The notes: generated from the letters alone by a model not told the origin. DNA of 64,000 nucleotides from Roseiflexaceae bacterium (GCA_040397035.1 JBBAWW010000001.1:16960-80959), one strand, 5' to 3'; shown: positions 1,989 through 60,596, counted from the first letter of the stretch. Program-made: numbers and translations.

Positions 1989-1995
1989 GATACTA

Positions 1996-45454: not shown

Positions 45455-46549
45455 TTAGGCTACCTGAATCCGATCCACAATCGCAGCCCCAACAATATCG
45501 GTATGCGACGTCGTTTCACCTAGGGCGGCTACGTCTTTTGTTACAATCCCTGCATCAAGGGTGGCATAGACCGCACGTTCCACTGCTTGGGCTTCGGCTT
45601 CGAGGTTGAGTGAATAGCGCAACAACATCGCCACGCTCAAAATCGTTGCCATAGGGTTGGCGATCCCTTTGCCGGCGATATCGGGAGCAGAGCCATGGAT
45701 TGGCTCATATAGTCCCATGCGGGTTGGCCCCGTACTTTCGGCACCGAGTGAGGCCGAAGGCAGCATGCCCATTGAGCCGGCCAGCATTGATGCTTCGTCG
45801 GTCAAAATATCTCCGAACATGTTTTCAGTGACAATGACATCGAAATCAGCGGGACGGCGAATCAAGTGCATGGCACAGGAATCGACCAGCATATGTTCGA
45901 GTGACACATCAGGGAATTCGGCTTGCATGATGCGTGTCGCAGTACTGCGCCACAAGCGTGATGTTTCGAGCACGTTGGCTTTATCGACGGATACCAGTTT
46001 CTTTTTGCGGCCACGGGCAGTGACGGCAGCAGTGCGAATAATCCGCTCGATTTCGCCAGTGGTATAGACGCAAGTATCGATGGCTTGTTCACCAGTCGCA
46101 TGGAGCTCACGCTTTTTTTCACCGAAATAAATCCCACCGGTTAATTCGCGTACCACCACCATATCGACGCCGTGCAATAAATCGGCACGCAATGGTGAGG
46201 CAGCAATCAAACGGGGATGGATGGTGACGGGGCGTAGATTGGCATACAAGCCTAATGCTTTGCGGATACCGAGCAGTCCTTGTTCGGGACGTACCTTGGC
46301 CGCAGGGTTATCCCATTTGGGACCACCCACGGCACCGAGCAGTACCGCGTCAGATGCCTGACAGGCAATCAAGGTAGCCTCAGGCAACGCAGTAGCGGTG
46401 GCGTCGATTGCACAGCCACCGAGGAGGGCAGTATTAATGGTAAATGTGTGGCCAAACACGGCTGCAACACGGTTTAATACGGCAACCCCTTGGGCAACGA
46501 CATCGGGGCCGATTCCATCACCAGGTAAAGTGGTAATTGTGGCGTGCAT
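45455..46549 (-). CDS. leuB: 3-isopropylmalate dehydrogenase
   Basis: 364 aa with [22 protein letters not shown] and [10 protein letters not shown] motifs. Confidence 0.92.
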
Positions 46550-47175
46550 TATAAACCTACCGTATCTACGCGAGTGGCGTGGGTCTGTTCATAGGCACTG
46601 ATATCGCTGTCGGCATTGGCCAAAAATCCAAGTTGGTCGACACCATTCACCACACAATATTTGGCAAATGGTTCAACGGGAAACCACATCGTACTGCCGT
46701 CGGGTAAAGTAACCGTTTGGCTGACCAAATCAACCGACAGGGTGGCGTGACCTGGGTTAGGCGCATCGCTGGCAGCCAGGAGCTGATACGTTTCGGGTGA
46801 AATCACAATCGGCAACAAGCCGTTTTTGAGGGAATTGTTTTGAAAAATATCGGCAAAGTAGGTGCTCAACACCGCTTTGAAGCCAAAGCCTTGGAGTGCC
46901 CACGGTGCATGTTCGCGTGACGAACCACAGCCAAAGTTGGTACCAGCAACGAGGACTTCGACCCCTTTAGTGAAGGGCTTGTTCAACAAAAACTCGGGTT
47001 TGGGTTGACCATTGCCGTCATAGCGCCAGTCAGAGAACAGATTATCGCCCAAGCCGACTTTGTCGGTGGTTTTGAGGAAGCGGGCCGGGATGATTTGGTC
47101 GGTATCGACGTTTTCCATCGCGAGCACGGCATAGCGTGCAGTATACGGAATAAATTTATTCAACGGAAGCCTCAT
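46549..47175 (-). CDS. leuD: 3-isopropylmalate dehydratase small subunit
   Basis: 208 aa with [15 protein letters not shown] and [17 protein letters not shown] motifs. Its stop overlaps the leuB start. Confidence 0.9.
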
Positions 47176-47422
47176 TCTGATTCATGGAGGGAGCGAGATC
47201 CATCAAGGTGCGATGACGCACGGCATCACCAACCACACTAATTCCGCTATTGACAATAACTAACCCAATCGTGCCCCACCAAAACCACGGCTTTCCATGG
47301 CTTTTTTGGCTAATGGCATGGCCAGTCACACTCAGACCGAGCCCCACGAGGAGTAACCCAAGCGGGGCTTTTTTGGCCCACTGTAGGTAATGGTGATTAT
47401 CCCAAGATTTCACGGGGGTCAC
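47156..47422 (-). CDS. small two-TM membrane protein encoded between leuC and leuD
   Basis: 88-aa ORF filling the 221-nt leuC-leuD gap. Two hydrophobic helices ([18 protein letters not shown]; [18 protein letters not shown]). It overlaps the leuC end by 26 nt and the leuD start by 20 nt. Confidence 0.45.
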
Positions 47423-48824
47423 AAATTACTCCTGCAATAGCGGTGGCAGCGGCAGTTAAGGGGCTCGCCAAAAAGGTTCGGCCACCCTTGCCTTGGCGCC
47501 CTTCGAAATTACGATTACTCGTGGAAACGGCATATTGACCAGGTTTGAGTTGATCACCATTCATGGCAATACACATCGAACATCCTGCTTCACGCCATTC
47601 GGCTCCAGCTGCCTTGAAGATTTCGTCAAGGCCTTCGGCTTCGGCTTGTTTTTTGACTTGCTGTGAGCCGGGGACCACCATCATGCGCACACCACTCGCC
47701 ACTTTGCGGTCTTGCATTACTTGAGCCGCCAAACGCAGGTCGGAAATACGTGAATTGGTGCAGCTACCAATAAAGACCACATCGACTTTTTTGCCGATCA
47801 ACGATTGGCCAGGTTCGAGGTCCATGTAGGCCAACGCTTTGGTAAGGCCAGCCCGGGCAGAGTCGTCAGCCATATCATCAGCGGTAGGGACATTGCCCGT
47901 GATGGGGATACCCATGCCCGGATTGGTGCCATAGGTAATCATCGGCGCTAATTCGTCGGCGTGGAGCGCGACTATTGCGTCATAAACGGCACCCTCATCC
48001 GACACGAGGGTTTGCCAATCAGCAACGGCGGCATCCCAGGCTGCGCCGTGGGGGGCACGCGGACGACCTTGGATGTAGTCAAACGTGGTTTTGTCGGGGG
48101 CGATGAGACCGGCCCGGGCGCCACCTTCGATCGACATGTTACATACGGTCATGCGTTCTTCCATGCTGAGCGCGCGAATGGCTTCGCCGGTATATTCGAG
48201 CACATAGCCGGTGCCGCCACCGACACCAATTTTGGCGATGATTGCGAGGATAATATCTTTGGCACCGACACCTTTGGAAAGGCGTCCATTGATGCGAATT
48301 TCCATAGTTTTGGGGCGGCTCTGGAGCAAACATTGGGTAGCAAGCACATATCCGACTTCGGACGTACCAATACCAAATGCCAATGCACCAAAGGCACCAT
48401 GCGTGCTGGTATGACTGTCACCACAGACGATGGTCATACCGGGTTGGGTTAATCCTTGCTCGGGTCCAATAACATGCACAATCCCTTGGTTTTCGCTCCC
48501 CAAGGCAAACAACGGGATACCAAAGTCACGACAATTTGATTCGAGTTGGGTGAGTTGGGCCTGCGCTTGAATATCGAGGACGGGGATGATGCCTTGCGCA
48601 TTGCGGGGAGTTGTGGGAGTTGAATGATCCATGGTAGCGATAGTTTGGCCCGGGCGCCGTACTGTCAAGCCCCGTTGGCGTAATTCAGTGAACGCTTGGG
48701 GGGAGGTGACTTCGTGCACCAAATGCAGGTCGATATACAACACTGCGGGGGTTTCACTCGTTTCGGGGCGCACTTGATGGCGATTCCAGATTTTTTCGAA
48801 TAATGTTTGTGGTGTGGTTGCCAT
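47397..48824 (-). CDS. leuC: 3-isopropylmalate dehydratase large subunit
   Basis: 475 aa with aconitase-family Fe-S motifs ([30 protein letters not shown]). Confidence 0.92.
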
Positions 48825-48907
48825 GCCAACTCCTCATACCTTCAATTGATGATTCATCACGGAGCCATTTATGTGGCGCTGTGTGTTCGCGGGGGCTATC
48901 CAACGCG

Positions 48908-49825
48908 CTACTTCACGTAATCCAACCAGCCATGGTTGTCTGCGACCGAACCATCAAACAAGCCAAAGAAGCGTGATTGAATGGCTTCGGTGAGTTCACC
49001 ACGCATTCCCGCACCGATGATAACTTTGTCGACGGAACGAACAGGGGTAACTTCAGCGGCGGTGCCGGTAAAGAAAATTTCGTCGGCCAAGTACAACATT
49101 TCGCGTTGCATGTTGGTTTCACGCACATCCATTGTGAGATCTTTGGCAATCGTGATAATGGAATCACGCGTAATTCCGGACAAAATACTGGCGGTGGCGG
49201 GTGGCGTGTAGATGACGCCATCACGCACGATAAATAGATTCATGCCGGAACCTTCAGCGACGTAGCCATTGATGTCCATGGCGATGCCTTCGGCATAGCC
49301 GTTGCGCAACGCTTCGCTTTTAATCAGCGTCGATGACAAATAATTCCCACCAGCCTTGGCCATGGTAGGGATGGTATTTGCCGCAAGGCGACTCCACGAC
49401 GACACCATCACATCGACACCGTTTTTGAGGCCGTCCGGTCCAAGGTAGGCATCCCATTGCATCCCTACAACAAGTGCTTCTATTGGATTAGCGCGTCCAT
49501 CGAGCCCGAGTGGACCAACACCACACCAAATGAGTGGCCGGATGAAACATTGTTCGTACTGATGAACGGTAACGATATCTTTACAGGCTTGGCTGATTTC
49601 AGCCATAGAAAAGGGGATTTCCATGCAATATATCTTGCACGAATCCCAAAGGCGGCGCATATGGGGGCCGAGTCGGAAGATGGCCGGCCCGTGTGGGGTG
49701 GCGTAGGCCCGAATCCCCTCAAACACCGAAGACCCATAGTGCAAGGCGTGGGTCATGACATGCACTATGGCTTGTGACCAAGGAACCATCCGTCCGTTGA
49801 ACCAGATTTGTTGTTCAGTGGTCAT
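48908..49825 (-). CDS. ilvE: branched-chain amino acid aminotransferase, copy 1
   Basis: 305 aa of class IV aminotransferase type (HALHYGSSVFEGIRAY, MAKAGGNYLSS, EIFFTGTAAEVTPV). Confidence 0.9.
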   Translation of the reverse strand: MTTEQQIWFNGRMVPWSQAIVHVMTHALHYGSSVFEGIRAYATPHGPAIFRLGPHMRRLWDSCKIYCMEIPFSMAEISQACKDIVTVHQYEQCFIRPLIWCGVGPLGLDGRANPIEALVVGMQWDAYLGPDGLKNGVDVMVSSWSRLAANTIPTMAKAGGNYLSSTLIKSEALRNGYAEGIAMDINGYVAEGSGMNLFIVRDGVIYTPPATASILSGITRDSIITIAKDLTMDVRETNMQREMLYLADEIFFTGTAAEVTPVRSVDKVIIGAGMRGELTEAIQSRFFGLFDGSVADNHGWLDYVK

Positions 49826-49860
49826 CGGTCTACTCCTCTGCCAAACGATTCATCTAGCCC

Positions 49861-49914
49861 GTTGCGGTGTGGTACGTCTCACTCCCCATGCGTACATTCG
49901 TTATCCACCGCAAC
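49861..49914 (-). other. nested inverted repeat in the spacer between the two ilvE copies
   Basis: GTTGCGGTG (49861..49869) pairs with CACCGCAAC (49906..49914), enclosing GTACG (49872..49876) / CGTAC (49891..49895). A third GTTGCGGT copy sits at 49926..49933. Confidence 0.4.
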
Positions 49915-49951
49915 CTCTGTTTAGAAGTTGCGGTAGCAGTACACAGACTGT

Positions 49952-50866
49952 TTAGACGTAATCCAACCAGCCATGGCGGTCTTCGACCGAACCATCAAAC
50001 AAGCCAAAGAAGCGCTCTTGGATGGCTTCGGTGAGTTCACCGCGCATCCCGGTGCCGATGGTGACTTTGTCGACGGACCGCACAGGAGTGACTTCAGCGG
50101 CGGTACCGGTGAAGAAGATTTCGTCGGCCAAATACAACGTTTCACGTTGCATATTGGTCTCAACGACCGGCATCTTGAGTTCTTTGGCAATCGTCATAAT
50201 CGAATCGCGGGTAATACCAGGCAAAATACTAGACGTGGTGGGGGGCGTATAGATCACGCCATCACGCACGATGAATACATTCATGCCTGAGCCTTCGGCG
50301 ATGTTGCCATTGATATCCAAGGCAATGCCGTCGGTATAGCCATTGCGCAACGCTTCGTTTTTGATCAAGTTTGATGACAAATAGTTGCCACCAGCCTTGG
50401 CCATGGTGGGGATGGTGTTGGCCGCAGGGCGATTCCAAGATGACACCATCACATCGACGCCGTTTTTGAGACCCTCAGGTCCGAGATAGGCGCCCCATTC
50501 GACGGCGGCAACCATGGCTTCGATGGGGTTGGCTTTGCCGTCGAGTCCCAACGGTCCTTCGCCACGCCATACGAGCGGACGAATGTAAGAATTACCGTAA
50601 TTGTTGATTCGGACCACATCTTTACAGGCTTGGGTGATTTCTGCCACCGAAAAAGGGATTTCCATGCGATATATCTTGCATGAATCCCAGAGTCGGCGCA
50701 TATGCAACCCTAGACGGAAAATGGCCGGGCCTTTTTTGGTGGGGTATGAGCGAATTCCTTCAAAAATCGATGACCCGTAATGCAACGCATGGGTCATGAC
50801 GTGTACATTGGCTTGTGACCAGGGAATCATCTGTCCTTTGAACCAAATCTGCTTCTCAGTCGTCAT
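49952..50866 (-). CDS. ilvE: branched-chain amino acid aminotransferase, copy 2 (tandem paralog)
   Basis: Start at ATG 50866 (GAAGGAG SD). By eye, roughly four-fifths of residues are identical to copy 1. Confidence 0.9.
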   Translation of the reverse strand: MTTEKQIWFKGQMIPWSQANVHVMTHALHYGSSIFEGIRSYPTKKGPAIFRLGLHMRRLWDSCKIYRMEIPFSVAEITQACKDVVRINNYGNSYIRPLVWRGEGPLGLDGKANPIEAMVAAVEWGAYLGPEGLKNGVDVMVSSWNRPAANTIPTMAKAGGNYLSSNLIKNEALRNGYTDGIALDINGNIAEGSGMNVFIVRDGVIYTPPTTSSILPGITRDSIMTIAKELKMPVVETNMQRETLYLADEIFFTGTAAEVTPVRSVDKVTIGTGMRGELTEAIQERFFGLFDGSVEDRHGWLDYV

Positions 50867-50947
50867 GGGGGTGCTCCTTCGTCGGTGATGGATTTCATGG
50901 GTATTATATATCATTCACTTGACAAACAAATTGTCAGTTGAACCGTG

Positions 50948-52522
50948 CTAGTAGCCGTAGCGTGCTAACGGCAATTCCAAGGCATCCCAGAGTGCTTGCC
51001 AACTGGCCGCCAAAATGTTTTCGGAACAGCCCACCGTGGTCCAACGGGCTTCTCCCCGCGCAGATTCAATGATTACCCGCGGGCGAGCTGCCGTCCCCAA
51101 ATGCTCATCGACGATGCGCACTTTGTAGTCAACTAGCGCCACATTAGCCAGTTGCGGATAAAACGGCGCCAAGGCCTTGCGGATCGCTTGGTCAAGCGCA
51201 TTGACAGGGCCATCTCCGTCAGCAGCAGTATGGATATTGTGACCTTTGACCCGCAATTTGACCATCGCTTGTGAGCGGATGTCGTGGTCGTTTTTGGCAT
51301 CGACAATCACGGTGAAATCGAGTAACTCGAAAGGCGCCACATAACCGGGCGCATTACGGCGGATGAGCATTTCGAACGATCCCTCGGCTGCTTCAAACTG
51401 CAATCCTTGTTGTTCGAGTTCTTTGATTTTTTGCAAAATCACTCGTTCATTGCCGTCGATGTCGAGCCCCAAATGCGCCGCCCGCATGCGGATATTGTTG
51501 CGCCCAGACAATTCACTGACCACAATCCGCATTTCATTGCCTACCAAATTGGGATCAATGTGCTGGTAGCTCGCAGCAAATTTGGCCACTGCTTGGGCGT
51601 GAATCCCCCCTTTGTGGGCAAAGGCGCTGCGTCCCACGAATGGCGCATGATGGTCGAGATTAAGGTTGCAGATGTCGGCGACGACATGCGAAACGATACT
51701 CAGCCGTTGGATTTGAGCCGGGGCGATCCCTTGATACCCCAGCTTGAGATGGGTATTGGCGATCAAGGCAATCAAATCCATGTTGCCACAACGTTCGCCA
51801 ATGCCGTTAATTGTGCCTTGGACGTGACGAGCGCCTGCATCGATAGCTGCCAAGGCATTGGCCACGGCTACTGCGCCATCATTGTGGGTATGGATGCCAA
51901 TCTGCACGTTCAATTGCTGCGCCACAAAATACGATATCACCCGGGTCACAACCCAGGTGATATCGTGCGGCAGTGCACCACCGTTGGTGTCACATAGCAC
52001 AATAGTGTGTGCGCCAGCGTGAGCAGCGGCGGCAATCGTCGCTAGGGTATAGTCGGCATCAAGGGCATAGCCATCAAAAAAATGTTCGGCGTCGTAGATG
52101 ACTTCTTTGCCATGGTCTACAAAGTACGCCACGCTATCGGCGATCATGCGCACATTTTCGTCGCAGGTGGTTTCGAGCACCTGTTCGACGTGCAACACTG
52201 AGCTTTTGCCCACCAACGTCACCACGGGCGTGTTGGCAGCGAGCAAGGCTTGGGTATTGGCATCGTCGGCACAGGTGGATTTGGCGTGGCGGGTACTGCC
52301 AAAAGCAGCGATTTTGGCATGCTGGAGCGTGGTGGATTGCATACGGCGAAAAAACTCAGCGTCTTTGGGATTCGAGCCAGGCCAGCCACCTTCGATGTAA
52401 TGCACCCCTAATTCATCAAGCACATGCGTGATTTTGATTTTGTCTTCAACAGAGAGCGAAATGCCTTCACGTTGCGTACCATCACGCAAGGTGGTGTCAT
52501 AGATTTTGAGCAACATGGTCAT
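50948..52522 (-). CDS. cimA: (R)-citramalate synthase-like member of the LeuA/CimA family
   Basis: 524 aa. N-terminus KIYDTTLRDGTQREGISLS and a C-terminal LeuA-dimer regulatory domain. It is shorter than and distinct from the leuA copy in the same operon. Confidence 0.75.
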   Translation of the reverse strand: MTMLLKIYDTTLRDGTQREGISLSVEDKIKITHVLDELGVHYIEGGWPGSNPKDAEFFRRMQSTTLQHAKIAAFGSTRHAKSTCADDANTQALLAANTPVVTLVGKSSVLHVEQVLETTCDENVRMIADSVAYFVDHGKEVIYDAEHFFDGYALDADYTLATIAAAAHAGAHTIVLCDTNGGALPHDITWVVTRVISYFVAQQLNVQIGIHTHNDGAVAVANALAAIDAGARHVQGTINGIGERCGNMDLIALIANTHLKLGYQGIAPAQIQRLSIVSHVVADICNLNLDHHAPFVGRSAFAHKGGIHAQAVAKFAASYQHIDPNLVGNEMRIVVSELSGRNNIRMRAAHLGLDIDGNERVILQKIKELEQQGLQFEAAEGSFEMLIRRNAPGYVAPFELLDFTVIVDAKNDHDIRSQAMVKLRVKGHNIHTAADGDGPVNALDQAIRKALAPFYPQLANVALVDYKVRIVDEHLGTAARPRVIIESARGEARWTTVGCSENILAASWQALWDALELPLARYGY

Positions 52523-53368
52523 TTAGATAGTCCTTTTTTCATCCTTATGCCAGCATGGATAACTCCCAAATATTTTTAAAAACCCCGTTTGGGCACGCAT
52601 ATGATCTAAGGTGGCTGCAATATGCGGATCGAGACGATGTCCGTTAATGTCAACAAAAAAAACATATTCACCGAGGACCGCTTTGGAAGGACGTGATTCG
52701 AATTTGGTGATATTGATACCAGCATCGGCCAGAATCTGGAGCGGTTTGACAATTTGGCCGGAGCGATCTTCACGATCAAATCCAAAACAGAGGCTGGTTT
52801 TGTCGTCTCCTGTAGGGGCATGATCTGTCGCAGCGAGCACGACGAAGCGGGTGACATTGCTGGCACGATCTTGGATGTCTGGCACCAAGATGACGGCGCC
52901 AGTCAGCTCCGCTGCCCGGGTGGTGCCTATCGCCACCGCCACCCGGGCCGAAGCGAGTGCCTCGGCAGGAGCAGCACTATTGGAAAGCGATGCGATCGTA
53001 GTAACATGAGGCAAATGCGTATCAATGTAATGGCGACATTGACCAAGCGATTGGGGATGGCCATACAACACTTCGACGTGCGTCAAATCCGTCCCCAGCT
53101 TCCCCAACAGTTGATGATTGATGGGGATGACTAGTTCCGCCGTAATCATCAACTGGGTATCATGCACGAGTAGATCGAGTGTCGTGGTGACACTGCCTTC
53201 CAAGACGTTTTCGATTGGTAACATTGCCACATCAGCCAACCCTTGTTCAACTGAATGAACCGCTGCCGGAAAAGTGGGTTGCGGCACAAATACATCGCCC
53301 GTAGCGGCATAGCTAATAGCCGCAATCTCACTGTATGTACCGGCAGGACCAAGATAACTGATGCGCAT
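52523..53368 (-). CDS. pheA: prephenate dehydratase with C-terminal ACT domain
   Basis: 281 aa. MRISYLGPAGTYSE, NVTRFVVL, and an ESRP motif in the ACT region (ITKFESRPSK). Confidence 0.88.
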   Translation of the reverse strand: MRISYLGPAGTYSEIAAISYAATGDVFVPQPTFPAAVHSVEQGLADVAMLPIENVLEGSVTTTLDLLVHDTQLMITAELVIPINHQLLGKLGTDLTHVEVLYGHPQSLGQCRHYIDTHLPHVTTIASLSNSAAPAEALASARVAVAIGTTRAAELTGAVILVPDIQDRASNVTRFVVLAATDHAPTGDDKTSLCFGFDREDRSGQIVKPLQILADAGINITKFESRPSKAVLGEYVFFVDINGHRLDPHIAATLDHMRAQTGFLKIFGSYPCWHKDEKRTI

Positions 53369-53405
53369 AATTACCTACTACCACACGTATGGCCTGAGCA
53401 CGAAT

Positions 53406-55061
53406 TTAGCGTTGTGTATTGGCGAAGTTGTCGACGGCATAGCCTGGGCTATTCGAATCGTAGCCATCCGCATAGGCCGATTTTTCGGCTTGAATAAAGT
53501 GCTCACGGTTTTGCAATAATTTGTTCAACGCCCCCATATAGGCTTCCGCCGCTGCTACCATGGTGTCAGTATGCACGCCATAGCCATTGTACAAATCAAT
53601 GCCAGGTTTGGTACTCGCTTGCTGGGCGGCCGTGGTGTCGCGAATCCGCACAGATACTTCTGCGACGGCGTCGATGCCTTCGGTGACCGAATTGATGGTG
53701 AATTCCAACAATTCCACGGGGCGACCCACCACTTTATCGATGGCCTTGTAGATGGCATCGACAGGGCCGGTGCCATGGGCGGCTTCGAGATGCGTCTGGC
53801 CTTGTTGGTCGATTAAGCGCACCGTCGCAACGGGAGTCAAACTCGTGCCAGTAATCACTTGCACGTGCTCCAGTTTGTAGACTTCGACCGTACGTTGCTG
53901 TTCCCCGGCAATCAAGGCTTCGATATCGCGGTCGTCGATTTTCTTTTTGCGATCGCAGAGCTCTTTGAAGCGTTCAAATAACGCTTGGAACTCTGCTTCG
54001 CTTTCGGCCTCATAGCCCATCGCCACCAACTTGGCCCGGAAGGCGTGACGACCGGAGTGTTTGCCAAGCACGAGCATGTTGCCATCGAGCCCGACGGTTT
54101 CGGCACTCATAATCTCGTACGTCAAGCGATTTTTCATGACGCCGTCTTGGTGAATGCCTGACTCGTGCGCAAAGGCATTGCCACCGACGATGGCTTTGTT
54201 GGGGGGCACCGGAATGCCGATGAATGAGCTGAGCAAGCGGCTCGAGCGTGTCAATTCGGTGGTATTGATTTTGGTGTTGGCTTGATAAAACGACTGGCGG
54301 GTATGCAAAGCCATCACTACTTCTTCGAGTGAGGCATTGCCGGCACGCTCGCCAATTCCATTGAGGGTACATTCCACTTGGCGGGCACCGGCACGCACCC
54401 CAGCCAAACTATTGGCGGTTGCCATCCCCAAATCGTCGTGGCAATGCGTCGAAATAATACACTTTTCGATGCCTACCACATTGGCCAAAATCCCGCGGAT
54501 TAAGTCGGCATATTCTTCACTGGTGGTAAAGCCGACAGTATCGGGGATATTGAGGGTGGTGGCGCCTTCGGCGACGACAGCCGTCAATACCTCGTAGAGA
54601 TAGGCAGGCTCAGAACGGGTAGCGTCCATTGGGGAAAATTCAATATCGTCGCAGAGTGTGCGGGCATAGCGTACCATCTCACGGGCCCGTTCCAACATTT
54701 TGGTGCGAGTCGATTTGAATTGATGTTCGATATGAATGTCTGAGGTCGACAAAAAGGTGTGAATGCGTTTGTTGGCGGCAGGTTGGATGGCAGTCCACGC
54801 TTTGTCGATGTCTTCTTTGATGGCCCGGGCCAAGGCGGCAATCACAGGGCCATCGCTGGTACCCACTTCTTTGGCTATTTGATGGACGGCAGCCCAGTCA
54901 CCGGGGGAGGCAGCAGGGAAGCCCGCTTCGATTATGTCTACACCGAGGCGGTGAAGCTGACGAGCGATTTCGAGCTTTTCTTCGAGTGACATGGTGCACC
55001 CAGGAGCCTGCTCGCCATCGCGCAAGGTGGTATCAAAAATTCGTACGTGACTTTCCTGCAT
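53406..55061 (-). CDS. leuA: 2-isopropylmalate synthase
   Basis: 551 aa. RIFDTTLRDGEQAPG, HCHDDLGMATAN, and a C-terminal regulatory domain. Confidence 0.9.
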   Translation of the reverse strand: MQESHVRIFDTTLRDGEQAPGCTMSLEEKLEIARQLHRLGVDIIEAGFPAASPGDWAAVHQIAKEVGTSDGPVIAALARAIKEDIDKAWTAIQPAANKRIHTFLSTSDIHIEHQFKSTRTKMLERAREMVRYARTLCDDIEFSPMDATRSEPAYLYEVLTAVVAEGATTLNIPDTVGFTTSEEYADLIRGILANVVGIEKCIISTHCHDDLGMATANSLAGVRAGARQVECTLNGIGERAGNASLEEVVMALHTRQSFYQANTKINTTELTRSSRLLSSFIGIPVPPNKAIVGGNAFAHESGIHQDGVMKNRLTYEIMSAETVGLDGNMLVLGKHSGRHAFRAKLVAMGYEAESEAEFQALFERFKELCDRKKKIDDRDIEALIAGEQQRTVEVYKLEHVQVITGTSLTPVATVRLIDQQGQTHLEAAHGTGPVDAIYKAIDKVVGRPVELLEFTINSVTEGIDAVAEVSVRIRDTTAAQQASTKPGIDLYNGYGVHTDTMVAAAEAYMGALNKLLQNREHFIQAEKSAYADGYDSNSPGYAVDNFANTQR

Positions 55062-55081
55062 GATAATTCCCCTTATTGTTG

Positions 55082-55117
55082 TAAAAAATGCTGGCTGGGA
55101 CGAATGCCCCAGCCAGC
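55082..55117 (-). terminator. internal intrinsic terminator-like hairpin between ilvC and leuA
   Basis: The minus-strand RNA reads GCUGGCUGGG-GCAUUCGU-CCCAGCCAGC followed by six U, starting 10 nt after the ilvC stop. Confidence 0.6.
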
Positions 55118-55126: not shown

Positions 55127-56149
55127 TTAGGAGCCGCCTTGGCCGGGAATGACTTCACGGGGGTTGACGAACGGCATCATGCGACGCAGATCGCGGCCGA
55201 CCACTTCGATTTCGTGGTCGACATCGGCAGCGCGCATTTTGTTGAAGCGGGGGCGGTTGTTGGCGTTCTCATCGATCCAGTCTTCGGCAAAGGTGCCGTC
55301 TTGGATATTGGTGAGCAATTGCTTCATGGCAGCCCGGGTTTGTTCGTTGATGATTTGTGAACCAGCCACATAATCGCCCCACTCGGCGGTGTCTGATACC
55401 GAGAAGCGCATGTAGTTCATACCACCTTGATAAAAGAGGTCAACAATCAACTTGAGCTCGTGCATACATTCGAAGTAGGCGACTTCGGGTTGGTAGCCGG
55501 CATCGACCAAGGTTTCGAAGCCTGCTTTGACCAAGGCCGACACGCCACCACACAACACGGCTTGTTCGCCGAACAAGTCGGTTTCGGTTTCTTCGGCAAA
55601 GGTGGTTTCGAGCACGCCGGCACGGGTGTTCCCCATACCCTTGGCATAGGCCAAGGCATCAGCCAAGGCATTGCCACTGGCGTCTTGGTGTACGGCGACC
55701 AAGGCTGGTACGCCGCCACCTTGGGTAAAGACTTCACGCACACGGTGGCCGGGGGCCTTGGGGGCGACCATGCTCACATCGATGCCGGCGGGGGGCACGA
55801 TTTGACCGTAACGGATGTTGAAGCCGTGGGCAAACATCAAGGTCTTGCCGGGGGCCAGATTTGGGGCGATATCTTCGCGATATACCTTGGCTTGCACAGT
55901 ATCTGGGGTCAAGTTCATGATAATTTGGGCAGCTTTGGAGGCATCAGCCACGGACATCACCGTGAGGCCGGCAGCTTCTGCTTTGGCCCAGCTTTTGGAG
56001 CCGGGGTACAAGCCAACCACCACATCGACGCCACTTTCTTTGAGATTGAGGGCATGGGCATGACCTTGGCTACCAAAGCCAATGATAGCGACGGTGCGGC
56101 CATTTAGGCGGCCCAAATCAGCCTGATTGTCGTAATACAACTTTGCCAT
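55127..56149 (-). CDS. ilvC: ketol-acid reductoisomerase
   Basis: 340 aa. [23 protein letters not shown] fold and class I KARI sequence. Confidence 0.93.
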
Positions 56150-56168
56150 GATCTACTGATGCTCCTTG

Positions 56169-56720
56169 TTATTGGGCTGCCGCACTTGCGGCACCCGCTA
56201 CGTCATTTTGCCAACCAGTGTCAACCAAATCGGCACCACTATGTCCTCGTGCGCCACGGACCATGGCGATACGCCCAGTACGCATCATTTCTTTGATGCC
56301 AAACGGACGCACCATATCAATGAAGTTGTCGACCTTGGCGGGACCACCGGTCATTTCGATGACCATGGCCGTTACCGATACATCGACAATCTTGGCACCA
56401 AATACTTCGGCAAGCGCCACTATTTCGGCACGTTGCTGACTCGGGACATGCAGTTTCACCAAGGCCATCTCGCGCTCAACCGTCGGATCATCGGTGACGT
56501 CGCTGACTTTGAGCACCTCGACCAACCGATACAATTGTTTGACCACTTGTTCGACATGGTCAGACTCTACCACGACCGTCATTCGGCTGATGCCAGCCGT
56601 TTCGGTATGACCAACTGCCAGACTCGCAATATTATAACCACGCCGGCGAAACATACTGACGGCGCGATTCAACACGCCGGGGTGGTCTTGCATTAACACG
56701 ACCAAAATGTGGGTCTTCAT
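56169..56720 (-). CDS. ilvN: acetolactate synthase small (regulatory) subunit
   Basis: 183 aa. ACT domain HILVVLMQDHPGVLNRAVSMFRRRGYNIASL. Confidence 0.9.
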   Translation of the reverse strand: MKTHILVVLMQDHPGVLNRAVSMFRRRGYNIASLAVGHTETAGISRMTVVVESDHVEQVVKQLYRLVEVLKVSDVTDDPTVEREMALVKLHVPSQQRAEIVALAEVFGAKIVDVSVTAMVIEMTGGPAKVDNFIDMVRPFGIKEMMRTGRIAMVRGARGHSGADLVDTGWQNDVAGAASAAAQ

Positions 56721-56723
56721 CGC

Positions 56724-58445
56724 TTACTCCGTAATCATTTCGCCGATGCTCTTGTTCTGGGGCACCATGGGGAACACATTGACTTCGCGCTCGACGCGGA
56801 AATCAATCAACACCGGACCGTCGGTGGCATAGGCTTGCTGTACCGCTGCCTCGATTTGATCCCCTGACTCAACCGTAATCCCCGTCCAGCCATAGGCTTC
56901 GGCCAGTTTTTGGAAGTTGGGGCTGGTCAATGGCGTCCCACTATAGCGCTTGCCTTCAAACAGCTCTTGCCATTGTCGTACCATCCCGAGGAAGCCATTG
57001 TTGATAATGGCAATCTTGATGTTCTTGATGTTTTCTTGGACAACCACAATCATTTCTTGATTGGTCATCTGGAAACCACCATCACCACAGACCACCCACA
57101 CAGTGTCTTCGGGATGGGCAACGGCCACACCCAAGGCTGCCGGCATGGCAAAGCCCATGGTACCAGCGCCACCGCTGGTGATATGCGTACGGGGACGATA
57201 CCAATCGAGCAACTGGGCAGCCCACATTTGATGCTGACCGACGTCGGTCACCACGCGGTAATTGCCACGCTCGTTCATCTCTTTAGTGAGCACGGCATAC
57301 ACATCGTGAGGCATCATCACCGAGGTATCGGGGCGATTGAGGTATTGTTGTTTGTGTTGGTGTTTAGCTTGTAATTCACGCACATACACCATCCACTCCG
57401 CTGCCACCTGCTGGAATTGCGCCACCTTGGTCTCTTCGGGTTCTTCTTCGAGCATTGACAACAGCACCAACTTGGCGTCGCCGACGATGGGCACATCGAC
57501 TTCGACGTTTTTGCCAATTTCGGAAGGATCGATATCGACATGCACAATCGAGGCATTGGGGGCAAACGTGGACGCCTTGCCGGTGACGCGGTCATCGAAG
57601 CGCCCGCCGATATTGAGCAAGAAGTCGCTTTCTTGGATGGCGCGGTTGACATGCACCCAGCCGTGCATGCCGGGCATGCCCAATGACAAGGGGTGATCTT
57701 GGGGGAAGGCGCCAAGGCCGTGCAACGTGGTGATTACGGGGATTTGGTAGCGCTCCGCAAAGGCCATGACTTCGTCGCTGGCATTGGCCATCATGACGCC
57801 GTTACCAATCATCATGACGGGTTTTTTGCTCTGGAGCATCAATTCAAGCGCAGCTTTGATTTGCTTTTTGCTGCCTTGGTATGTGGGGCGGTAGCCGGGC
57901 AAAAAGATTTTTTTGCTGTAATCAGGCACCATTGAAGCCTGCAATGCATCTTTGGTGATGTCGACAAGCACGGGGCCAGGGCGGCCAGTGGTGGCAATGA
58001 AAATTGCTTCCTTGACGGCATAGGCGATGTCTTCTACCCGTTTGATGAGGTAGTTGTGCTTGGTAATGGGCATCGTGATACCGGTGATGTCGGTTTCTTG
58101 GAAGGCGTCTTTGCCCAACACGGCGCTACTTACCTGACCACAGATTGCGAGCATCGGGGTGCTGTCCATCCAGGCATCGGCAATCGGGGTCACCAAATTA
58201 GTCGTACCTGGGCCACTTGTGCCGATACAGACGCCAATCCGACCGGTCGAGCGGGCAAATCCTTCGGCAGCGTGGCCGGCGCCTTGTTCGTGGCGACACA
58301 AAATATGGCGTAATTCGCTACGGTATTCCCACATAGCATGGTAGAACGGCATGATGGCGCCGCCCGGTAAACCAAACATCGTGTCGACACCATTTTGAAT
58401 CAATGCCTCACACAGAATCTGTGCGCCAGTGCGCTTGTCACTCAT
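56724..58445 (-). CDS. ilvB: acetolactate synthase large subunit (ThDP-dependent)
   Basis: Start at ATG 58445 (GGAGGA SD). ThDP motif GDGGFQMTNQE and a typical N-terminus GAQILCEALIQNGVDTMFGLPGG. Confidence 0.92.
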   Translation of the reverse strand: MSDKRTGAQILCEALIQNGVDTMFGLPGGAIMPFYHAMWEYRSELRHILCRHEQGAGHAAEGFARSTGRIGVCIGTSGPGTTNLVTPIADAWMDSTPMLAICGQVSSAVLGKDAFQETDITGITMPITKHNYLIKRVEDIAYAVKEAIFIATTGRPGPVLVDITKDALQASMVPDYSKKIFLPGYRPTYQGSKKQIKAALELMLQSKKPVMMIGNGVMMANASDEVMAFAERYQIPVITTLHGLGAFPQDHPLSLGMPGMHGWVHVNRAIQESDFLLNIGGRFDDRVTGKASTFAPNASIVHVDIDPSEIGKNVEVDVPIVGDAKLVLLSMLEEEPEETKVAQFQQVAAEWMVYVRELQAKHQHKQQYLNRPDTSVMMPHDVYAVLTKEMNERGNYRVVTDVGQHQMWAAQLLDWYRPRTHITSGGAGTMGFAMPAALGVAVAHPEDTVWVVCGDGGFQMTNQEMIVVVQENIKNIKIAIINNGFLGMVRQWQELFEGKRYSGTPLTSPNFQKLAEAYGWTGITVESGDQIEAAVQQAYATDGPVLIDFRVEREVNVFPMVPQNKSIGEMITE

Positions 58446-58468
58446 ACGTCCTCCATTTGATTGCATAA

Positions 58469-58502
58469 ACAAAAACCTCTCCCGTAGTACTACGGGAGAG
58501 GT
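58469..58502 (-). terminator. intrinsic terminator (attenuator) between the BCAA leader peptide and ilvB
   Basis: The minus-strand RNA reads ACCUCUCCCGUA-GUAC-UACGGGAGAGGU followed by UUUUUGUUU, ending ~23 nt before the ilvB ATG. Confidence 0.85.
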
Positions 58503-58542
58503 GAACTGTACTTCACGTGCGGTTTGGCCGCTCCCTATAGTA

Positions 58543-58617
58543 TCATGTGCTCATAATCGTTAGTACGACTAGAGCGACAGTAATTACTACTAGGTTGAGC
58601 TGACGGCGTTGAAACAC
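58543..58617 (-). CDS. Leu/Val/Ile-rich leader peptide MFQRRQLNLVVITVALVVLTIMST
   Basis: Hand translation; below the ORF-track cutoff. GTG start preceded by a GAGGA SD with a 6-nt gap. 11 of 15 central codons encode L, V or I. Confidence 0.75.
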   Translation of the reverse strand: MFQRRQLNLVVITVALVVLTIMST

Positions 58618-58650
58618 AGTAAATCCTCGTTTTGTGTTGGACCTGAGGGG

Positions 58651-58679
58651 ATTATAGAATGAATCGCACAGAATGTCAA
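58651..58679 (-). promoter_or_regulatory. consensus sigma70-type promoter of the ilv-leu supraoperon
   Basis: Minus strand reads TTGACA (58679..58674), a 17-nt spacer, then TATAAT (58656..58651). Confidence 0.7.
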
Positions 58680-58703
58680 ATACCATCGTGGTATATCAGC
58701 GAA

Positions 58704-60596
58704 CTACGGAGCAATCGTCATTGTCGGGGCGATAGCAAATGTCATCAATGGTTCTCCCAAACTCGACTTTGCTTCGACAGTACGATACCCAACCGGGATT
58801 TGCACATCGGCAAGCCGGACCGTCGGAATAGCGATGACTTGGGCGTCACTCCGTGGTGCAACTCCTTCAGTAATCGCGAGATAATCGAGATGTTTGGTAA
58901 GAAATGGCATCACGCCACTAGCATTACGATTGAGAAAATCTGTTTCGTAGACATCGACTTTTGTCCCTGCCGGGAGTTTTAGCGCAAATTGACCAAGCAG
59001 CGCACAGCTCTGCATTGCAATATCCCCTGCGCCGTCTTCTTTAACCACAAAAGTATTGAAATAGTAATCTATACTTTGATACGCACCAATACACATTACC
59101 CCTGCTAATACCACATGACTGATGTATTGCGCTATTTTTTGCGTAAAAAAACGTTGCCGTACGCGATCAATCGATTGGGCGCCAAACCCAATCAACAACG
59201 CAACGCTCCCCATCATGCTTACCATGCGGTGACCAGCAGCGACTGGGTATGCTAACGATGCAATCAAACACACAAACAAAATATTGAAGACCACAATATA
59301 ACTGTTTGGTGAACGCCAACGCGTAATCATGACCACTAATCCAAGTAAAAACAAGTACGCATAAACTGATGGCAAAATAGCCCCATTCGACCGATACCAA
59401 CCATCAACTGGTCCTGTAATAATTGCATTAAACGATCCTTTGAAGTTATTGCTGATAATTTCAAAGGCAGTCTTGTTTTGCTCTGCCATTTGTCGTGTCA
59501 ACACCGACGACCCATCTGATGCATCAGGCAAAAACAACGACGCCCGTTGCAACGGGGCACGAAAGTTGTTTGGATATTGATAGTAGTGGAATAACAATGG
59601 ACCCGCCACCGCAGCGGTTACCACACCATATAGCACCATGTGTAAAATAGTTGATTTCCATTGTGCCGATAAACGAATCAACTGAATGCCCGTCCAAATT
59701 ATGAGCAATAACGAAAGGTTACGGGCGCTGGCATAACCAAACAACCCAATCCCACTCAACACGCTAATAATGACGATTGAACGATTGTTGAATCCCTTTT
59801 CGCTCCGCAAAATAAGCCCGATAATTCCCAATACACACATCAAGTCAAATATCATGATGTAGTACAACCGTGAGAAGTTAATCAATATCCCGAGAGTCGC
59901 TACTACAAAACCAGCCATTAGTGCATAAGGACGATCAAGGATGGGGCGGACAGTCCAAATCGTCAAAGGAATCGTTATCATTCCAAAAAAGAGTGCCGGG
60001 ATACGCATGGCCCAGATCGACTGCCCAAAAATCTGCACCATCAAACCAGGTAAATACGACATCAATGAGGGAAGCTCAAGCCACCCCGAGATAAACGGAT
60101 TCGAAAAAGTCCCATCAAAATAGGTCATCCCAAAGATCGTAATCGACGCTTCGTCTCCGTTGAGCACCGGGATCTCTGTGATTCGATATACCCGCAGCAC
60201 TAAACCAATCAACGTAATCGCTAGTACCGCACCATAGTAATACTGATTTTCACGCGTAGTGAAATCGAATTTACCCGATATGTCTTTCCGTGTCGTACAA
60301 CTCAAAATTAACATGACAATGGCCACTACCCAGCCAATAACCATTTCGCCGGCATACGGTGGAGTCCATGATTGTGCATTGGTGAAAATCACATAGTCAT
60401 AGCCAATCATGGCAATTGCACCAGCTAATGGAATCGGCCGATTGACAGTAAAATAATAAATCCCCACCGCACTTAGCACCCCGAGTAATGCCACCCATAT
60501 AGGCAATACATCATTTCCAAGTCTAAACAATTGCAAAGGGAAAATTAAGAGCAACAGAAGAAGTATTATCTTTTTAGGAATCATGGCAAACCTCAT
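58704..60596 (-). CDS. GT39/ArnT-PMT-like membrane glycosyltransferase with C-terminal extracytoplasmic domain
   Basis: 630 aa and highly polytopic. An early loop VLRVYRITEIPVLNGDEAS resembles the DE-containing loop of GT-C enzymes. The DNA is visibly more AT-rich than its neighbours. Confidence 0.6.
   Translation of the reverse strand: MRFAMIPKKIILLLLLLIFPLQLFRLGNDVLPIWVALLGVLSAVGIYYFTVNRPIPLAGAIAMIGYDYVIFTNAQSWTPPYAGEMVIGWVVAIVMLILSCTTRKDISGKFDFTTRENQYYYGAVLAITLIGLVLRVYRITEIPVLNGDEASITIFGMTYFDGTFSNPFISGWLELPSLMSYLPGLMVQIFGQSIWAMRIPALFFGMITIPLTIWTVRPILDRPYALMAGFVVATLGILINFSRLYYIMIFDLMCVLGIIGLILRSEKGFNNRSIVIISVLSGIGLFGYASARNLSLLLIIWTGIQLIRLSAQWKSTILHMVLYGVVTAAVAGPLLFHYYQYPNNFRAPLQRASLFLPDASDGSSVLTRQMAEQNKTAFEIISNNFKGSFNAIITGPVDGWYRSNGAILPSVYAYLFLLGLVVMITRWRSPNSYIVVFNILFVCLIASLAYPVAAGHRMVSMMGSVALLIGFGAQSIDRVRQRFFTQKIAQYISHVVLAGVMCIGAYQSIDYYFNTFVVKEDGAGDIAMQSCALLGQFALKLPAGTKVDVYETDFLNRNASGVMPFLTKHLDYLAITEGVAPRSDAQVIAIPTVRLADVQIPVGYRTVEAKSSLGEPLMTFAIAPTMTIAP

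What the first reader, a model, noticed from the sequence alone, without database searches (positions are those of the whole stretch)
58469..58679. Leu/Val/Ile leader-peptide attenuator in front of the ilvBNC-leu supraoperon
The minus strand carries a perfect consensus promoter (TTGACA, 17 nt, TATAAT). It is followed by a GAGGA SD and a 24-codon ORF, MFQRRQLNLVVITVALVVLTIMST, in which 11 of 15 central codons encode L, V or I.

About 40 nt downstream sits a 12-bp terminator hairpin (ACCUCUCCCGUA/UACGGGAGAGGU) with a U tract, ending ~23 nt before the ilvB ATG. The segment ACUAUAGGGAG just after the leader stop is complementary to the CUCCCGUAGU 5' arm of the terminator. That is the alternative antiterminator pairing expected for ribosome-stalling control.

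Neither the peptide nor the terminator appears in the ORF track. The architecture copies the enterobacterial ilvB/ilvGMEDA/leu leaders, but it sits in a genome whose gene content looks non-proteobacterial. It would control a 13-kb operon.
Basis: partly seen in the sequence, partly recalled or inferred. Interest (0 to 1): 0.75.

Follow-up and report, generated by a model that had tools for sequence, protein, structure and literature searches.

The report
Branched-chain amino acid leader-peptide attenuator
A short upstream reading frame packed with Leu/Val/Ile codons, followed by a terminator hairpin that can refold, very probably switches the ilvBNC (and perhaps leu) genes of a Chloroflexota bacterium on when these amino acids run short; this is a textbook mechanism found in a phylum where I found no report of it.

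Summary
The minus strand carries the only 12/12 sigma-70 promoter in the window, a Shine-Dalgarno (SD) sequence, and a GTG-initiated 24-codon ORF (MFQRRQLNLVVITVALVVLTIMST). A 12-bp terminator with a U tract follows, ending 21 nt before the ilvB ATG.

The ORF is the most Leu/Ile/Val-dense of 2,403 short ORFs in the window. Three of its four Leu codons are CTA, the rarest Leu codon here (4%).

Five further distinct relatives (ilvB 84-89% identical) keep the start, the 24-codon length, the stop position (TGA/TAA/TAG) and the Leu/Ile/Val positions. Other residues vary.

Folding gives the classical 1:2 / 2:3 / 3:4 set. With a ribosome's A site at codons 6-18, the antiterminator is the best fold of the nascent RNA. 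With no ribosome, or one near the stop, it is not.

More distant Chloroflexota (Kouleothrix, other Chloroflexales, Anaerolineae, Sphaerobacter) have different Leu/Ile/Val-rich leaders built on the same GGGAG(G)/CCUCCC plan.

It matches no Rfam, Pfam or NCBIfam leader family. So it is a new member of a well-known kind, not a new mechanism.

Control of ilvBNC is likely. Control of all 13 kb is uncertain, because a terminator-like hairpin follows ilvC. A second, Thr-rich leader sits upstream of thrC in the same window.

The parts
58651..58679 (-). Sigma-70-type promoter: -35 TTGACA (58679-58674), 17-nt spacer, -10 TATAAT (58656-58651). Inferred transcription start at A 58644.
   Evidence: Both hexamers and the A at the inferred start are conserved in six relatives. 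The start site is inferred, not shown.
58621..58644 (-). 5'-terminal stem-loop that pairs the first 6 nt of the transcript with the leader's Shine-Dalgarno (SD) region (GAGGA 58628-58624).
   Evidence: A 5' hairpin of this kind is in the minimum-free-energy fold of all six relatives, although the sequence differs. Its role is inferred: 5'-end protection or tuning of leader translation.
58543..58617 (-). Leader ORF: GTG start, 24 codons, TGA stop. Peptide MFQRRQLNLVVITVALVVLTIMST. Regulatory Leu/Val/Ile codons lie at positions 7-21.
   Evidence: Rare CTA and GTA codons are enriched. Frame, length and stop position are conserved in L162, L164, L165, L175 and L177.
58585..58602 (-). Region 1 (CAGCUCAACCUAGUAGUA, codons 6-11): the 5' strand of the long 1:2 hairpin that holds region 2 when no ribosome is present.
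   Evidence: The 1:2 hairpin has dG -28.3 kcal/mol.
58549..58575 (-). Inner hairpin inside the ORF (GCUCUAGUCGU / ACGAUUAUGAGC), the tip of the 1:2 structure.
   Evidence: There are two compensatory pairs, at alignment columns 70:96 and 72:94 (for example U-A in the window against C-G in the relatives).
58531..58542 (-). Region 2 (UACUAUAGGGAG), starting 1 nt after the stop codon. It pairs either with region 1 or with the terminator's 5' arm (antiterminator).
   Evidence: It lies within the footprint of a ribosome sitting at the stop codon (inferred).
58519..58531 (-). Small hairpin GCGG-N5-CCGC nested inside the antiterminator.
   Evidence: The stem is invariant and the loop varies in six relatives.
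58467..58502 (-). Intrinsic terminator: 5' arm (region 3) 58502-58491, loop 58490-58487, 3' arm (region 4) 58486-58475, U tract UUUUGUUU 58474-58467.
   Evidence: dG -21.4 kcal/mol. It is conserved, with G-U wobble changes only, in relatives.
55127..58454 (-). Regulated genes that are most secure. The ilvB Shine-Dalgarno sequence GGAGG is at 58454-58450. ilvB is 56724-58445, ilvN 56169-56720 and ilvC 55127-56149.
   Evidence: NCBIfam equivalogs. The ilvB start at 58445 agrees with 573-aa homologues.
45455..55117 (-). Possible downstream part of the transcription unit. A hairpin plus U tract lies at 55117-55090. Then come leuA, pheA, cimA, ilvE, ilvE, leuC, leuD and leuB.
   Evidence: Co-transcription past the hairpin is not shown.

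Best explanation
This is a ribosome-mediated (leader-peptide) transcription attenuator that senses charged tRNA-Leu, -Val and -Ile.

**Proposed sequence of events:**
1. Transcription starts near 58644.
2. A ribosome translates the 24-codon leader while RNA polymerase moves on.
3. If branched-chain aminoacyl-tRNAs are scarce, the ribosome stalls within codons 7-18. Many of these are rare CTA or GTA codons.
4. The stalled ribosome covers region 1 and leaves region 2 (UACUAUAGGGAG) free.
5. Region 2 then pairs with the newly made 5' arm of the terminator (CUCCCGUAGUA). The terminator cannot form, and polymerase reads into ilvBNC.
6. If supply is good, the ribosome reaches the stop codon and covers region 2, which starts 1 nt after the stop. 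The terminator then forms and a transcript of about 175 nt is released.
7. With no translation at all, region 2 is locked in the long 1:2 hairpin, and termination also follows.

**Shown here:** the sequence elements, their conservation, the alternative pairings and their energies.

**Inferred:** the transcription start, translation of the ORF, stalling, kinetic coupling, and the actual response to amino-acid supply.
For: **The elements are present and unusual.**
- Elements and coordinates.
- Unique perfect promoter.
- The ORF is the most LIV-dense of 2,403 short ORFs. It is the only LIV-ORF-plus-terminator combination in the window.

**Codon choice.** CTA is 4% of Leu codons in the window's genes but 3 of the 4 Leu codons in the leader. 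It is kept in all six relatives at codons 9 and 16, and in five of the six at codon 19. GTA is 16% of Val codons but 3 of 5 in the leader.

**The ORF is conserved as a reading frame.** This holds in six distinct sequences with ilvB 84-100% identical.
- The GTG start, 24-codon length and stop position are kept, while the stop triplet varies (TGA, TAA, TAG).
- Variable columns number 8, 4 and 12 for codon positions 1, 2 and 3.
- LIV positions are invariant or swap among L, I and V. Non-LIV positions change freely.

**The element travels with ilvB.** The upstream gene differs or is divergent in L162, L164 and L175.

**Structures.**
- Terminator -21.4 kcal/mol; antiterminator state -19.3 (z = -2.9; 0.8% of shuffles as stable); 1:2 hairpin -28.3.
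- In the ribosome-mask model, the antiterminator is the minimum-free-energy fold of the transcript cut before the 3' arm when the A site is at codons 6-18. It is not when there is no ribosome or the A site is at codon 19 through the stop.

**Wider Chloroflexota carry the same plan.** L168, L170, L172, L174, L178, L009, L059 and L070 have unrelated LIV-run leaders that end at or near UUGGGAGG, followed by a terminator whose 5' arm is CCUCCC.
- The bases next to the GGGAG core differ between lineages but stay complementary to the terminator's loop-proximal or loop bases. Examples: window UACUAU/GUAGUA, L172 GCCU/AGGC, L070 CGCUU/AAGCG, L168 UUU/AGA.
- The region 2: 5'-arm duplex beats shuffles (p < 0.03) in 6 of 9 lineages.

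**Specificity control.** 19 of 172 ilvB upstream regions carry a LIV-ORF plus terminator. None of the 172 reverse-strand controls does.

**Other points.**
- No T-box or other known RNA family lies here.
- A second leader of the same design (Thr run, upstream of thrC) is in the same window. It suggests that this genome uses the same mechanism at a second operon.
Against: - There are no expression, ribosome-profiling or 3'-end data.
- At equilibrium the full-length RNA always folds into the terminator. The switch therefore has to be kinetic, as in the classical cases.
- Covariation within the close clade is weak. The terminator and the antiterminator core are almost invariant. Only one compensatory pair supports the antiterminator and two support the ORF hairpin, and shuffle controls are not decisive.
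- In L162 and L164 the antiterminator shrinks to about 8 pairs (-12 kcal/mol).
- In three distant lineages the region 2: arm duplex is not better than shuffles.
- Nucleotide-level conservation of CCUAGUAGU could reflect the 1:2 stem rather than codon choice.
- The leader's SD is partly paired in a 5' hairpin.
- There is a cautionary precedent. In Streptomyces coelicolor, changing the candidate regulatory codons of the ilvB leader did not change regulation (PMC1262725).
Confidence: 0.8

Rival explanations
1. The 24-codon ORF encodes a real small hydrophobic (single-helix membrane) protein. The hairpin is simply a constitutive or partial terminator, and the LIV richness reflects a transmembrane helix rather than regulatory codons.
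For: The peptide looks like a helix with a basic N-terminus (FQRRQ, then 18 mostly hydrophobic residues). Weak sub-threshold Pfam hits go to N-terminal membrane segments (DUF7263 at E 0.019). Hydrophobic character is conserved.
Against: - It always sits directly between a promoter and ilvB or ilvD in many lineages, with unrelated peptide sequences.
- It uses the rarest Leu codon.
- Region 2 is placed exactly at the stop codon and is complementary to the terminator arm.
- A constitutive strong terminator in front of essential biosynthetic genes, with no other promoter, would make little sense.
Confidence: 0.06
2. The terminator/antiterminator switch is real, but it is set by something other than the translating ribosome. 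Candidates are an RNA-binding protein, an uncharged tRNA, or a small molecule binding the leader RNA. On this view the ORF is incidental or only modulates the switch.
For: In S. coelicolor, ilvB leader codon changes had no effect (PMC1262725). The small GCGG/CCGC hairpin and the CUAUAGGGAGCGG block are invariant at the nucleotide level. That could mark a binding site.
Against: - No T-box or riboswitch model matches.
- The reading frame, its length, its stop position and its LIV positions are conserved while the stop triplet varies.
- Distant lineages keep the LIV run but not the RNA sequence.
Confidence: 0.07
3. The leader acts mainly on translation or mRNA stability rather than on transcription termination. 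Mechanisms could include ribosome-dependent protection of the 5' region or Rho-dependent polarity.
For: The 5' hairpin and the long 1:2 hairpin could act as stability elements. The mechanism of termination is not shown.
Against: A canonical 12-bp GC-rich hairpin with a U tract is conserved. It does not overlap the ilvB SD or start codon, which lie 21-29 nt downstream. Occlusion of translation is therefore unlikely.
Confidence: 0.04

Closest known systems
Enterobacterial ilvGMEDA (IlvL), ilvBN (IvbL) and leu (LeuL) leader-peptide attenuators
   Same: - A promoter-proximal short ORF with a run of Leu/Val/Ile codons.
- The 1:2, 2:3 and 3:4 alternative hairpins.
- An intrinsic terminator just before the first structural gene.
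- Multivalent Leu+Val+Ile composition, like ilvGMEDA.
- Use of rare CUA Leu codons, as in the E. coli leu leader (from my own knowledge).
   Different: - No sequence or model similarity. Rfam Leu_leader and the Pfam/NCBIfam leader-peptide families do not match.
- GTG start.
- Region 2 lies just after the stop, so the terminating ribosome itself masks it.
- The host is Chloroflexota.
- The gene set behind it is ilvBNC followed by leuA-pheA-cimA-ilvE-ilvE-leuCDB.
Corynebacterium ilvBNC uORF attenuator (ilvB-II motif; three-hairpin model) and the candidate ilvB leaders of Mycobacterium and Streptomyces
   Same: A non-proteobacterial ilvB leader ORF rich in Ile/Val/Leu, followed by a terminator in front of ilvBNC. 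It has experimental support in Corynebacterium (PMC10272879, PMC11857589) and computational support in Actinobacteria (PMC1262725).
   Different: The phylum and sequence differ. In Actinobacteria the ORF overlaps the terminator, whereas here it ends 40 nt before it. The Actinomycetes locus L058 found in my scan has an unrelated peptide.
ilvB-OMG and Leptospira ilvB RNA motifs (Breaker laboratory), re-read as BCAA/Thr-rich uORF attenuators
   Same: Conserved RNA motifs upstream of ilvB that contain a short ORF rich in branched-chain codons and are suggested to work by attenuation (PMC10272879, section 14).
   Different: No Rfam family matched the leader, even at E up to 10. None matched the Chloroflexota relatives at gathering thresholds. 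I could not confirm which of these motifs are included in Rfam 15.
Firmicute BCAA leader peptides (Staphylococcus aureus ilv-leu attenuator peptide; Listeria Rli60)
   Same: A Leu- or BCAA-rich leader peptide with a terminator controlling ilv-leu operons in Gram-positive bacteria (PMC5794164, PMC5864092).
   Different: Those systems act together with CodY. In Bacillus the same operon uses a T-box instead. Here no T-box is present. Regulators that bind promoter DNA were not examined.

Membership tests
Ribosome-mediated (leader-peptide) transcription attenuators, as a mechanistic class | A short ORF with its own SD and start codon lies between the promoter and the first structural gene. | tested here: met
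   GAGGA, then 6 nt, then GTG, then 24 codons. The ORF lies between the promoter (58679-58651) and ilvB (58445). A purine-rich SD at constant spacing, and the GTG, are kept in six relatives.
Ribosome-mediated (leader-peptide) transcription attenuators, as a mechanistic class | The ORF is enriched in codons for the amino acids made by the downstream pathway. | tested here: met
   11 of 15 central codons are L/V/I, the top of 2,403 short ORFs. The downstream genes make Val, Ile and Leu. LIV positions are conserved while others vary.
Ribosome-mediated (leader-peptide) transcription attenuators, as a mechanistic class | An intrinsic terminator lies between the ORF and the structural gene. | tested here: met
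   A 12-bp stem of -21.4 kcal/mol followed by UUUUGUUU. It is conserved in relatives.
Ribosome-mediated (leader-peptide) transcription attenuators, as a mechanistic class | A mutually exclusive antiterminator exists whose formation depends on where the ribosome sits. | tested here: met
   The 2:3 pairing has -19.3 kcal/mol, z = -2.9. It is the best fold only with the A site at codons 6-18. This is an in silico result; covariation within the clade is weak but is supported across lineages.
Ribosome-mediated (leader-peptide) transcription attenuators, as a mechanistic class | Read-through responds to the supply of the cognate aminoacyl-tRNAs and requires translation of the leader. | not testable with these tools
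   This needs reporter fusions, Term-seq or coupled in vitro transcription-translation.
Enterobacterial Leu/Ilv leader families (Rfam Leu_leader RF00512; Pfam/NCBIfam IvbL, IlvL and LeuL peptide families) | A match to the family's covariance model or profile HMM. | tested here: not met
   There was no Rfam hit at gathering score over the window or at E up to 10 over 58300-58900. No leader-peptide family appeared in Pfam or NCBIfam at E up to 10.
T-box leader (RF00230), the usual RNA control of ilv-leu in Firmicutes | A match to the T-box covariance model (specifier loop, T-box sequence). | tested here: not met
   No T-box was found in the window or in seven related loci.
ilvB-OMG / ilvB / ilvB-II RNA motifs | A match to the motif's covariance model. 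| tested here: inconclusive
   No Rfam family matched. I could not verify that each of these motifs is among the 4,227 Rfam 15 models, and their alignments were not available to me.

The most novel reading that the evidence does not exclude
The window's element may be one member of an uncatalogued, phylum-wide Chloroflexota family of classical attenuators, covering ilv and also thr. All members are built on one module: an anti-SD-like CCUCCC terminator arm, and an SD-like GGGAG(G) strand placed at the leader's stop codon.

On the most novel reading, the terminating ribosome does more than cover that strand. It engages it through its own anti-SD sequence, so that SD/anti-SD pairing is part of the switch.
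Probability: 0.12. Interest if true: 0.55.

Novelty: new member of a known kind. Interest (0 to 1): 0.33.

Why it matters
It extends classical ribosome-mediated attenuation of branched-chain amino acid synthesis to Chloroflexota. I found no description of it for this phylum in the searchable literature, and no database model matches.

Together with the Thr leader in the same window, it suggests that leader-peptide attenuation is a regular tool in this phylum.

In practice it supplies an unannotated small ORF and cis-regulatory RNA that genome annotation misses. It also gives a seed for a new RNA family model, and a compact, well-defined switch of about 175 nt for experiments in a poorly studied group.

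It does not change the understanding of the mechanism.

Tried and rejected
- **Collection scans with ilvB.** They returned only distant homologues (47-66% identity). They were useless for close comparison but served later as a scan and control set.
- **Exact look-up of ilvB.** The window's ilvB was not on record. ilvC was found, but that contig (L081) has an identical leader and adds no information.
- **Known families.** Rfam, Pfam and NCBIfam gave no family for the RNA or the peptide. T-box was rejected.
- **Covariation statistics on the six close sequences.** These were underpowered because the helices are nearly invariant. I do not rest the case on them.
- **Equilibrium folding of the full-length leader under ribosome masks.** It always gives the terminator, so only the co-transcriptional (truncated) model discriminates between states.
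- **The hairpin as terminator of the upstream 630-aa gene.** Rejected, because the leader and terminator persist where the upstream gene is different or divergent.
- **The conserved ~33-aa second ORF.** A tblastn search of the window for the ORF seen in distant relatives gave nothing convincing (best E 0.012).
- **Literature.** Six searches found no report for Chloroflexota. The one survey that might cover it (Lopatovskaya et al. 2010, Mol Biol 44:128) is not held.

Full report
**1. What is there**

On the minus strand the sequence reads as follows.

| Element | Coordinates |
|---|---|
| -35 TTGACA | 58679-58674 |
| spacer | 17 nt |
| -10 TATAAT | 58656-58651 |
| likely start (A) | 58644 |
| SD (Shine-Dalgarno) GAGGA | 58628-58624 |
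| GTG start codon | 58617 |
| 24 sense codons | to 58546 |
| TGA stop | 58545-58543 |
| terminator hairpin | 58502-58475 |
| U tract UUUUGUUU | 58474-58467 |
| ilvB SD GGAGG | 58454-58450 |
| ilvB ATG | 58445 |

- The terminator stem is ACCUCUCCCGUA/UACGGGAGAGGU, 12 bp with a 4-nt loop. It begins 40 nt after the stop.
- The promoter is the only 12/12 consensus match in the 64 kb. Four matches with up to 1 mismatch were found against 0.24 expected.
- The peptide is MFQRRQLNLVVITVALVVLTIMST, and 11 of the 15 codons at positions 7-21 are Leu, Val or Ile.
- Among 2,403 short ORFs (15-40 codons, both strands) it is the single most LIV-dense.
- A window-wide scan for a LIV-run ORF followed by a terminator returns it alone.

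The only corrections are that the start is GTG and that the antiterminator needs one bulged A.

**2. Context**

The genes behind the leader are as follows (NCBIfam).

| Gene | Coordinates |
|---|---|
| ilvB | 56724-58445 |
| ilvN | 56169-56720 |
| ilvC | 55127-56149 |
| leuA | 53406-55061 |
| pheA | 52523-53368 |
| cimA | 50948-52522 |
| ilvE (two copies) | 49952-50914 and 48908-49825 |
| leuC | 47397-48824 |
| leuD | 46549-47175 |
| leuB | 45455-46549 |

- The closest ilvB proteins (73-97% identical) come from Chloroflexota MAGs named Roseiflexaceae, Kouleothrix or Chloroflexaceae.
- No Rfam family covers the leader. In particular there is no T-box.

**3. Comparative evidence in close relatives**

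Five further distinct leaders were recovered from contigs whose ilvB is 84-89% identical: L162, L164, L165, L175 and L177. L081 is identical to the window.

- All keep the -35 and -10 hexamers, a purine-rich SD, the GTG, exactly 24 codons and a stop at the same place. The stop triplet varies (TGA, TAA, TAG).
- Variable columns by codon position are 8, 4 and 12.
- LIV positions are invariant or swap among L, I and V. The other positions vary freely (K/Q, G/R, Q/R, A/S/T, A/T, M/T, G/S).
- The 5' untranslated part is much more variable: 22 of 27 columns, against 24 of 72 in the ORF.
- The element stays with ilvB when the upstream neighbour changes or is divergent. So it is not the terminator of the upstream gene.

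**4. Codon choice**

In the window's long genes CTA makes up 4% of Leu codons and GTA 16% of Val codons. In the leader, 3 of 4 Leu codons are CTA and 3 of 5 Val codons are GTA. CTA is kept in all six sequences at codons 9 and 16, and in five of six at codon 19.

By simple binomial reckoning the Leu result alone has a probability of about 2.5e-4. Rare regulatory codons are a known feature of the E. coli leu leader (from my own knowledge).

There is a caveat. The same bases form the 1:2 stem, so RNA structure may contribute to their conservation.

**5. Structures**

- The leader folds far better than shuffles (z = -4.7).
- **State with no ribosome**: a 5' hairpin includes the SD. A long 1:2 hairpin (-28.3 kcal/mol) joins codons 6-11 (CAGCUCAACCUAGUAGUA) to UACUAUAGGGAGC just after the stop. 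The terminator (-21.4 kcal/mol) also forms.
- **Alternative state**: UACUAU.GGGAG pairs with CUCCC-GUAGUA of the terminator's 5' arm, enclosing the small GCGG/CCGC hairpin. Its energy is -19.3 kcal/mol, against -11.4 +/- 2.7 for shuffles of the upstream strand. Only 0.8% of shuffles are as stable.
- **Ribosome-mask model**: the transcript was cut before the 3' arm. With the A site at codons 6-18 the antiterminator is the best fold. With no ribosome, or with the A site at codon 19 through the stop, it is not.
- At equilibrium the full-length RNA always prefers the terminator. The switch must therefore be kinetic, as in the classical systems.
- Within the close clade, covariation is too sparse to prove the helices. 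There are two compensatory pairs in the ORF hairpin and one in the antiterminator.

**6. Wider Chloroflexota**

More distant relatives carry different LIV-rich leaders in the same position.

| Locus | Source | Leader peptide |
|---|---|---|
| L168 | Chloroflexi AL-W | MNFFAHNFILSLLLVVLIIIKGLQLFGR |
| L170 | Kouleothrix | MVRLNASLLLSLLLVALIIITGL |
| L172 | Chloroflexaceae | MSRASFSIIILLNLVLLLLVGRSHNRLGA |
| L174 | Roseiflexaceae | MNFSAYSFIIILLLVALIILKGYRVLGR |
| L178 | Chloroflexota MAG | MSRSFRGLLLLIVALILKGL |
| L059, L070 | Anaerolineae | LIV-rich leaders |
| L009 | Sphaerobacter | LIV-rich leader |

- In all of them a GGGAG(G) block lies at or just after the end of the ORF. The terminator's 5' arm is CCUCCC.
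- The bases flanking the core differ between lineages, yet they stay complementary to the loop-proximal or loop bases of the terminator. Examples: window UACUAU/GUAGUA, L172 GCCU/AGGC, L070 CGCUU/AAGCG, L168 UUU/AGA.
- That complementarity cannot be explained by the terminator stem alone. It is the best cross-lineage support for the antiterminator.
- The duplex beats shuffles at p < 0.03 in 6 of 9 lineages.
- In a blind scan, 19 of 172 ilvB upstream regions had a LIV-ORF plus terminator. None of the 172 reverse-strand controls did.

**7. Mechanism**

The best-supported reading is classical multivalent attenuation.

- Stalling at Leu/Val/Ile codons uncovers region 2, which captures the terminator's 5' arm and allows read-through.
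- A ribosome that reaches the stop covers region 2, which starts 1 nt after the stop, so termination follows.
- An untranslated leader locks region 2 in the 1:2 hairpin and also terminates.

The transcription start, translation, stalling and the response to amino acids are all inferred.

Rivals are listed with their weights: a genuine small membrane peptide, a non-ribosomal effector, and a translational or stability effect. The Streptomyces precedent, where leader codon changes did not alter regulation (PMC1262725), is a reason for caution.

**8. Extent of control**

- ilvB, ilvN and ilvC are separated by 3 and 19 nt and are surely co-transcribed.
- After ilvC there is a 12-bp, GC-rich hairpin with AUUUUUU (55117-55090).
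- Relatives have different strong hairpins at the same place, without a U tract.
- No good promoter is seen further down.

The attenuator may therefore set the level of the whole 13 kb, with a step-down after ilvC. This is not shown.

**9. Comparison with what is known**

The mechanism is textbook for enterobacterial ilvGMEDA, ilvBN and leu. ilvB leader ORFs are also documented or proposed in:
- Corynebacterium (PMC10272879, PMC11857589);
- other Actinobacteria (PMC1262725);
- S. aureus (PMC5794164);
- Listeria (PMC5864092);
- Leptospira, and the ilvB-OMG motif from various phyla (PMC10272879).

The element here matches none of the curated RNA or peptide families. Six literature searches found nothing on Chloroflexota. 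One possibly relevant survey is not held.

**Verdict:** a new member of a known kind. It is well supported in silico, of modest interest, and useful for annotation and as a seed for a family model.

**10. Seen in passing**

- The same window holds a second leader of the same design upstream of thrC. It has a promoter-like site at 2024-1996, the ORF MLNKTICRMVTTTTTTRSRTTTGVA at 1988-1911, and a CCCCCCCCUCCC/GGAGGGGGG terminator with a U tract.
- Distant relatives carry a conserved ORF of about 33 aa between the ilv leader terminator and ilvD or ilvB.

Noticed in passing
window 1842-2024 (minus strand), upstream of thrC (787-1833): A second candidate leader-peptide attenuator.
- Promoter-like TTGACA-17-TATTAT at 2024-1996.
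- An ATG at 1988, only about 7 nt after the -10, so the mRNA may be leaderless.
- ORF MLNKTICRMVTTTTTTRSRTTTGVA, with 10 Thr in 25 codons.
- The Thr-codon run pairs with a G/U-rich segment downstream.
- The terminator CCCCCCCCUCCC-ACAA-GGAGGGGGG plus UUUUUGU follows, and then threonine synthase.
- It folds with z = -4.5.
- No Rfam Thr_leader hit.

   Followed up: partly
window 55090-55117 (minus strand), the ilvC-leuA gap: A 12-bp GC-rich hairpin (GCUGGCUGGGGC/GUCCCAGCCAGC) followed by AUUUUUU lies inside the presumed operon. Relatives have unrelated strong hairpins at the same spot without a U tract. It could be a partial terminator or an mRNA processing or stability element that sets the ilvBNC: leu ratio.
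   Followed up: partly
L170 485-583, L172 2051-2152, L174 1675-1779, L178 about 2105-2210: A conserved ORF of about 33 aa (for example MLERIKRALEQLLGVSKPAPALQPVPIPVTRRRK) has a helical N-terminus, a PAPVPVPV-like proline-rich middle and an RRRR tail. It sits between the ilv leader terminator and ilvD or ilvB in more distant Chloroflexales. It has no Pfam or NCBIfam family and no convincing copy in the window. Its function is unknown; it may be a second regulatory uORF.
   Followed up: partly
window 58621-58644 (minus strand) and the same place in L162, L164, L165, L175, L177: The first 5-6 nt of the predicted transcript pair with the leader's SD region in all six relatives, although the sequences differ. 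This may protect the 5' end or tune leader translation.
   Followed up: partly
L009 3704-3881, L059 3581-3723, L070 3675-3821, L011 3664-3884, L058 3338-3466: LIV-run leader ORFs with terminators lie upstream of ilvB in Sphaerobacter, two Anaerolineae MAGs, a Gemmatimonadales MAG and an Actinomycetes MAG. None has an Rfam match. In L070, 14 nt of the ORF's end are perfectly complementary to the terminator's 5' arm plus loop.
   Followed up: partly
window 48908-53368 (minus strand): Prephenate dehydratase (pheA) is embedded between leuA and citramalate synthase (cimA). Two tandem ilvE paralogues follow, which is an unusual composition for an ilv-leu cluster.
   Followed up: no
window 9385-9528 (plus strand): A cobalamin riboswitch (RF00174, 58.5 bits), the only Rfam hit at gathering score in the window.
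   Followed up: no
window 15755-15783 (+) and 30887-30915 (+): Two further 11/12 promoter matches (TTGACA-17-TATACT), with the same -10 variant that the ilv leaders of relatives use.
   Followed up: no
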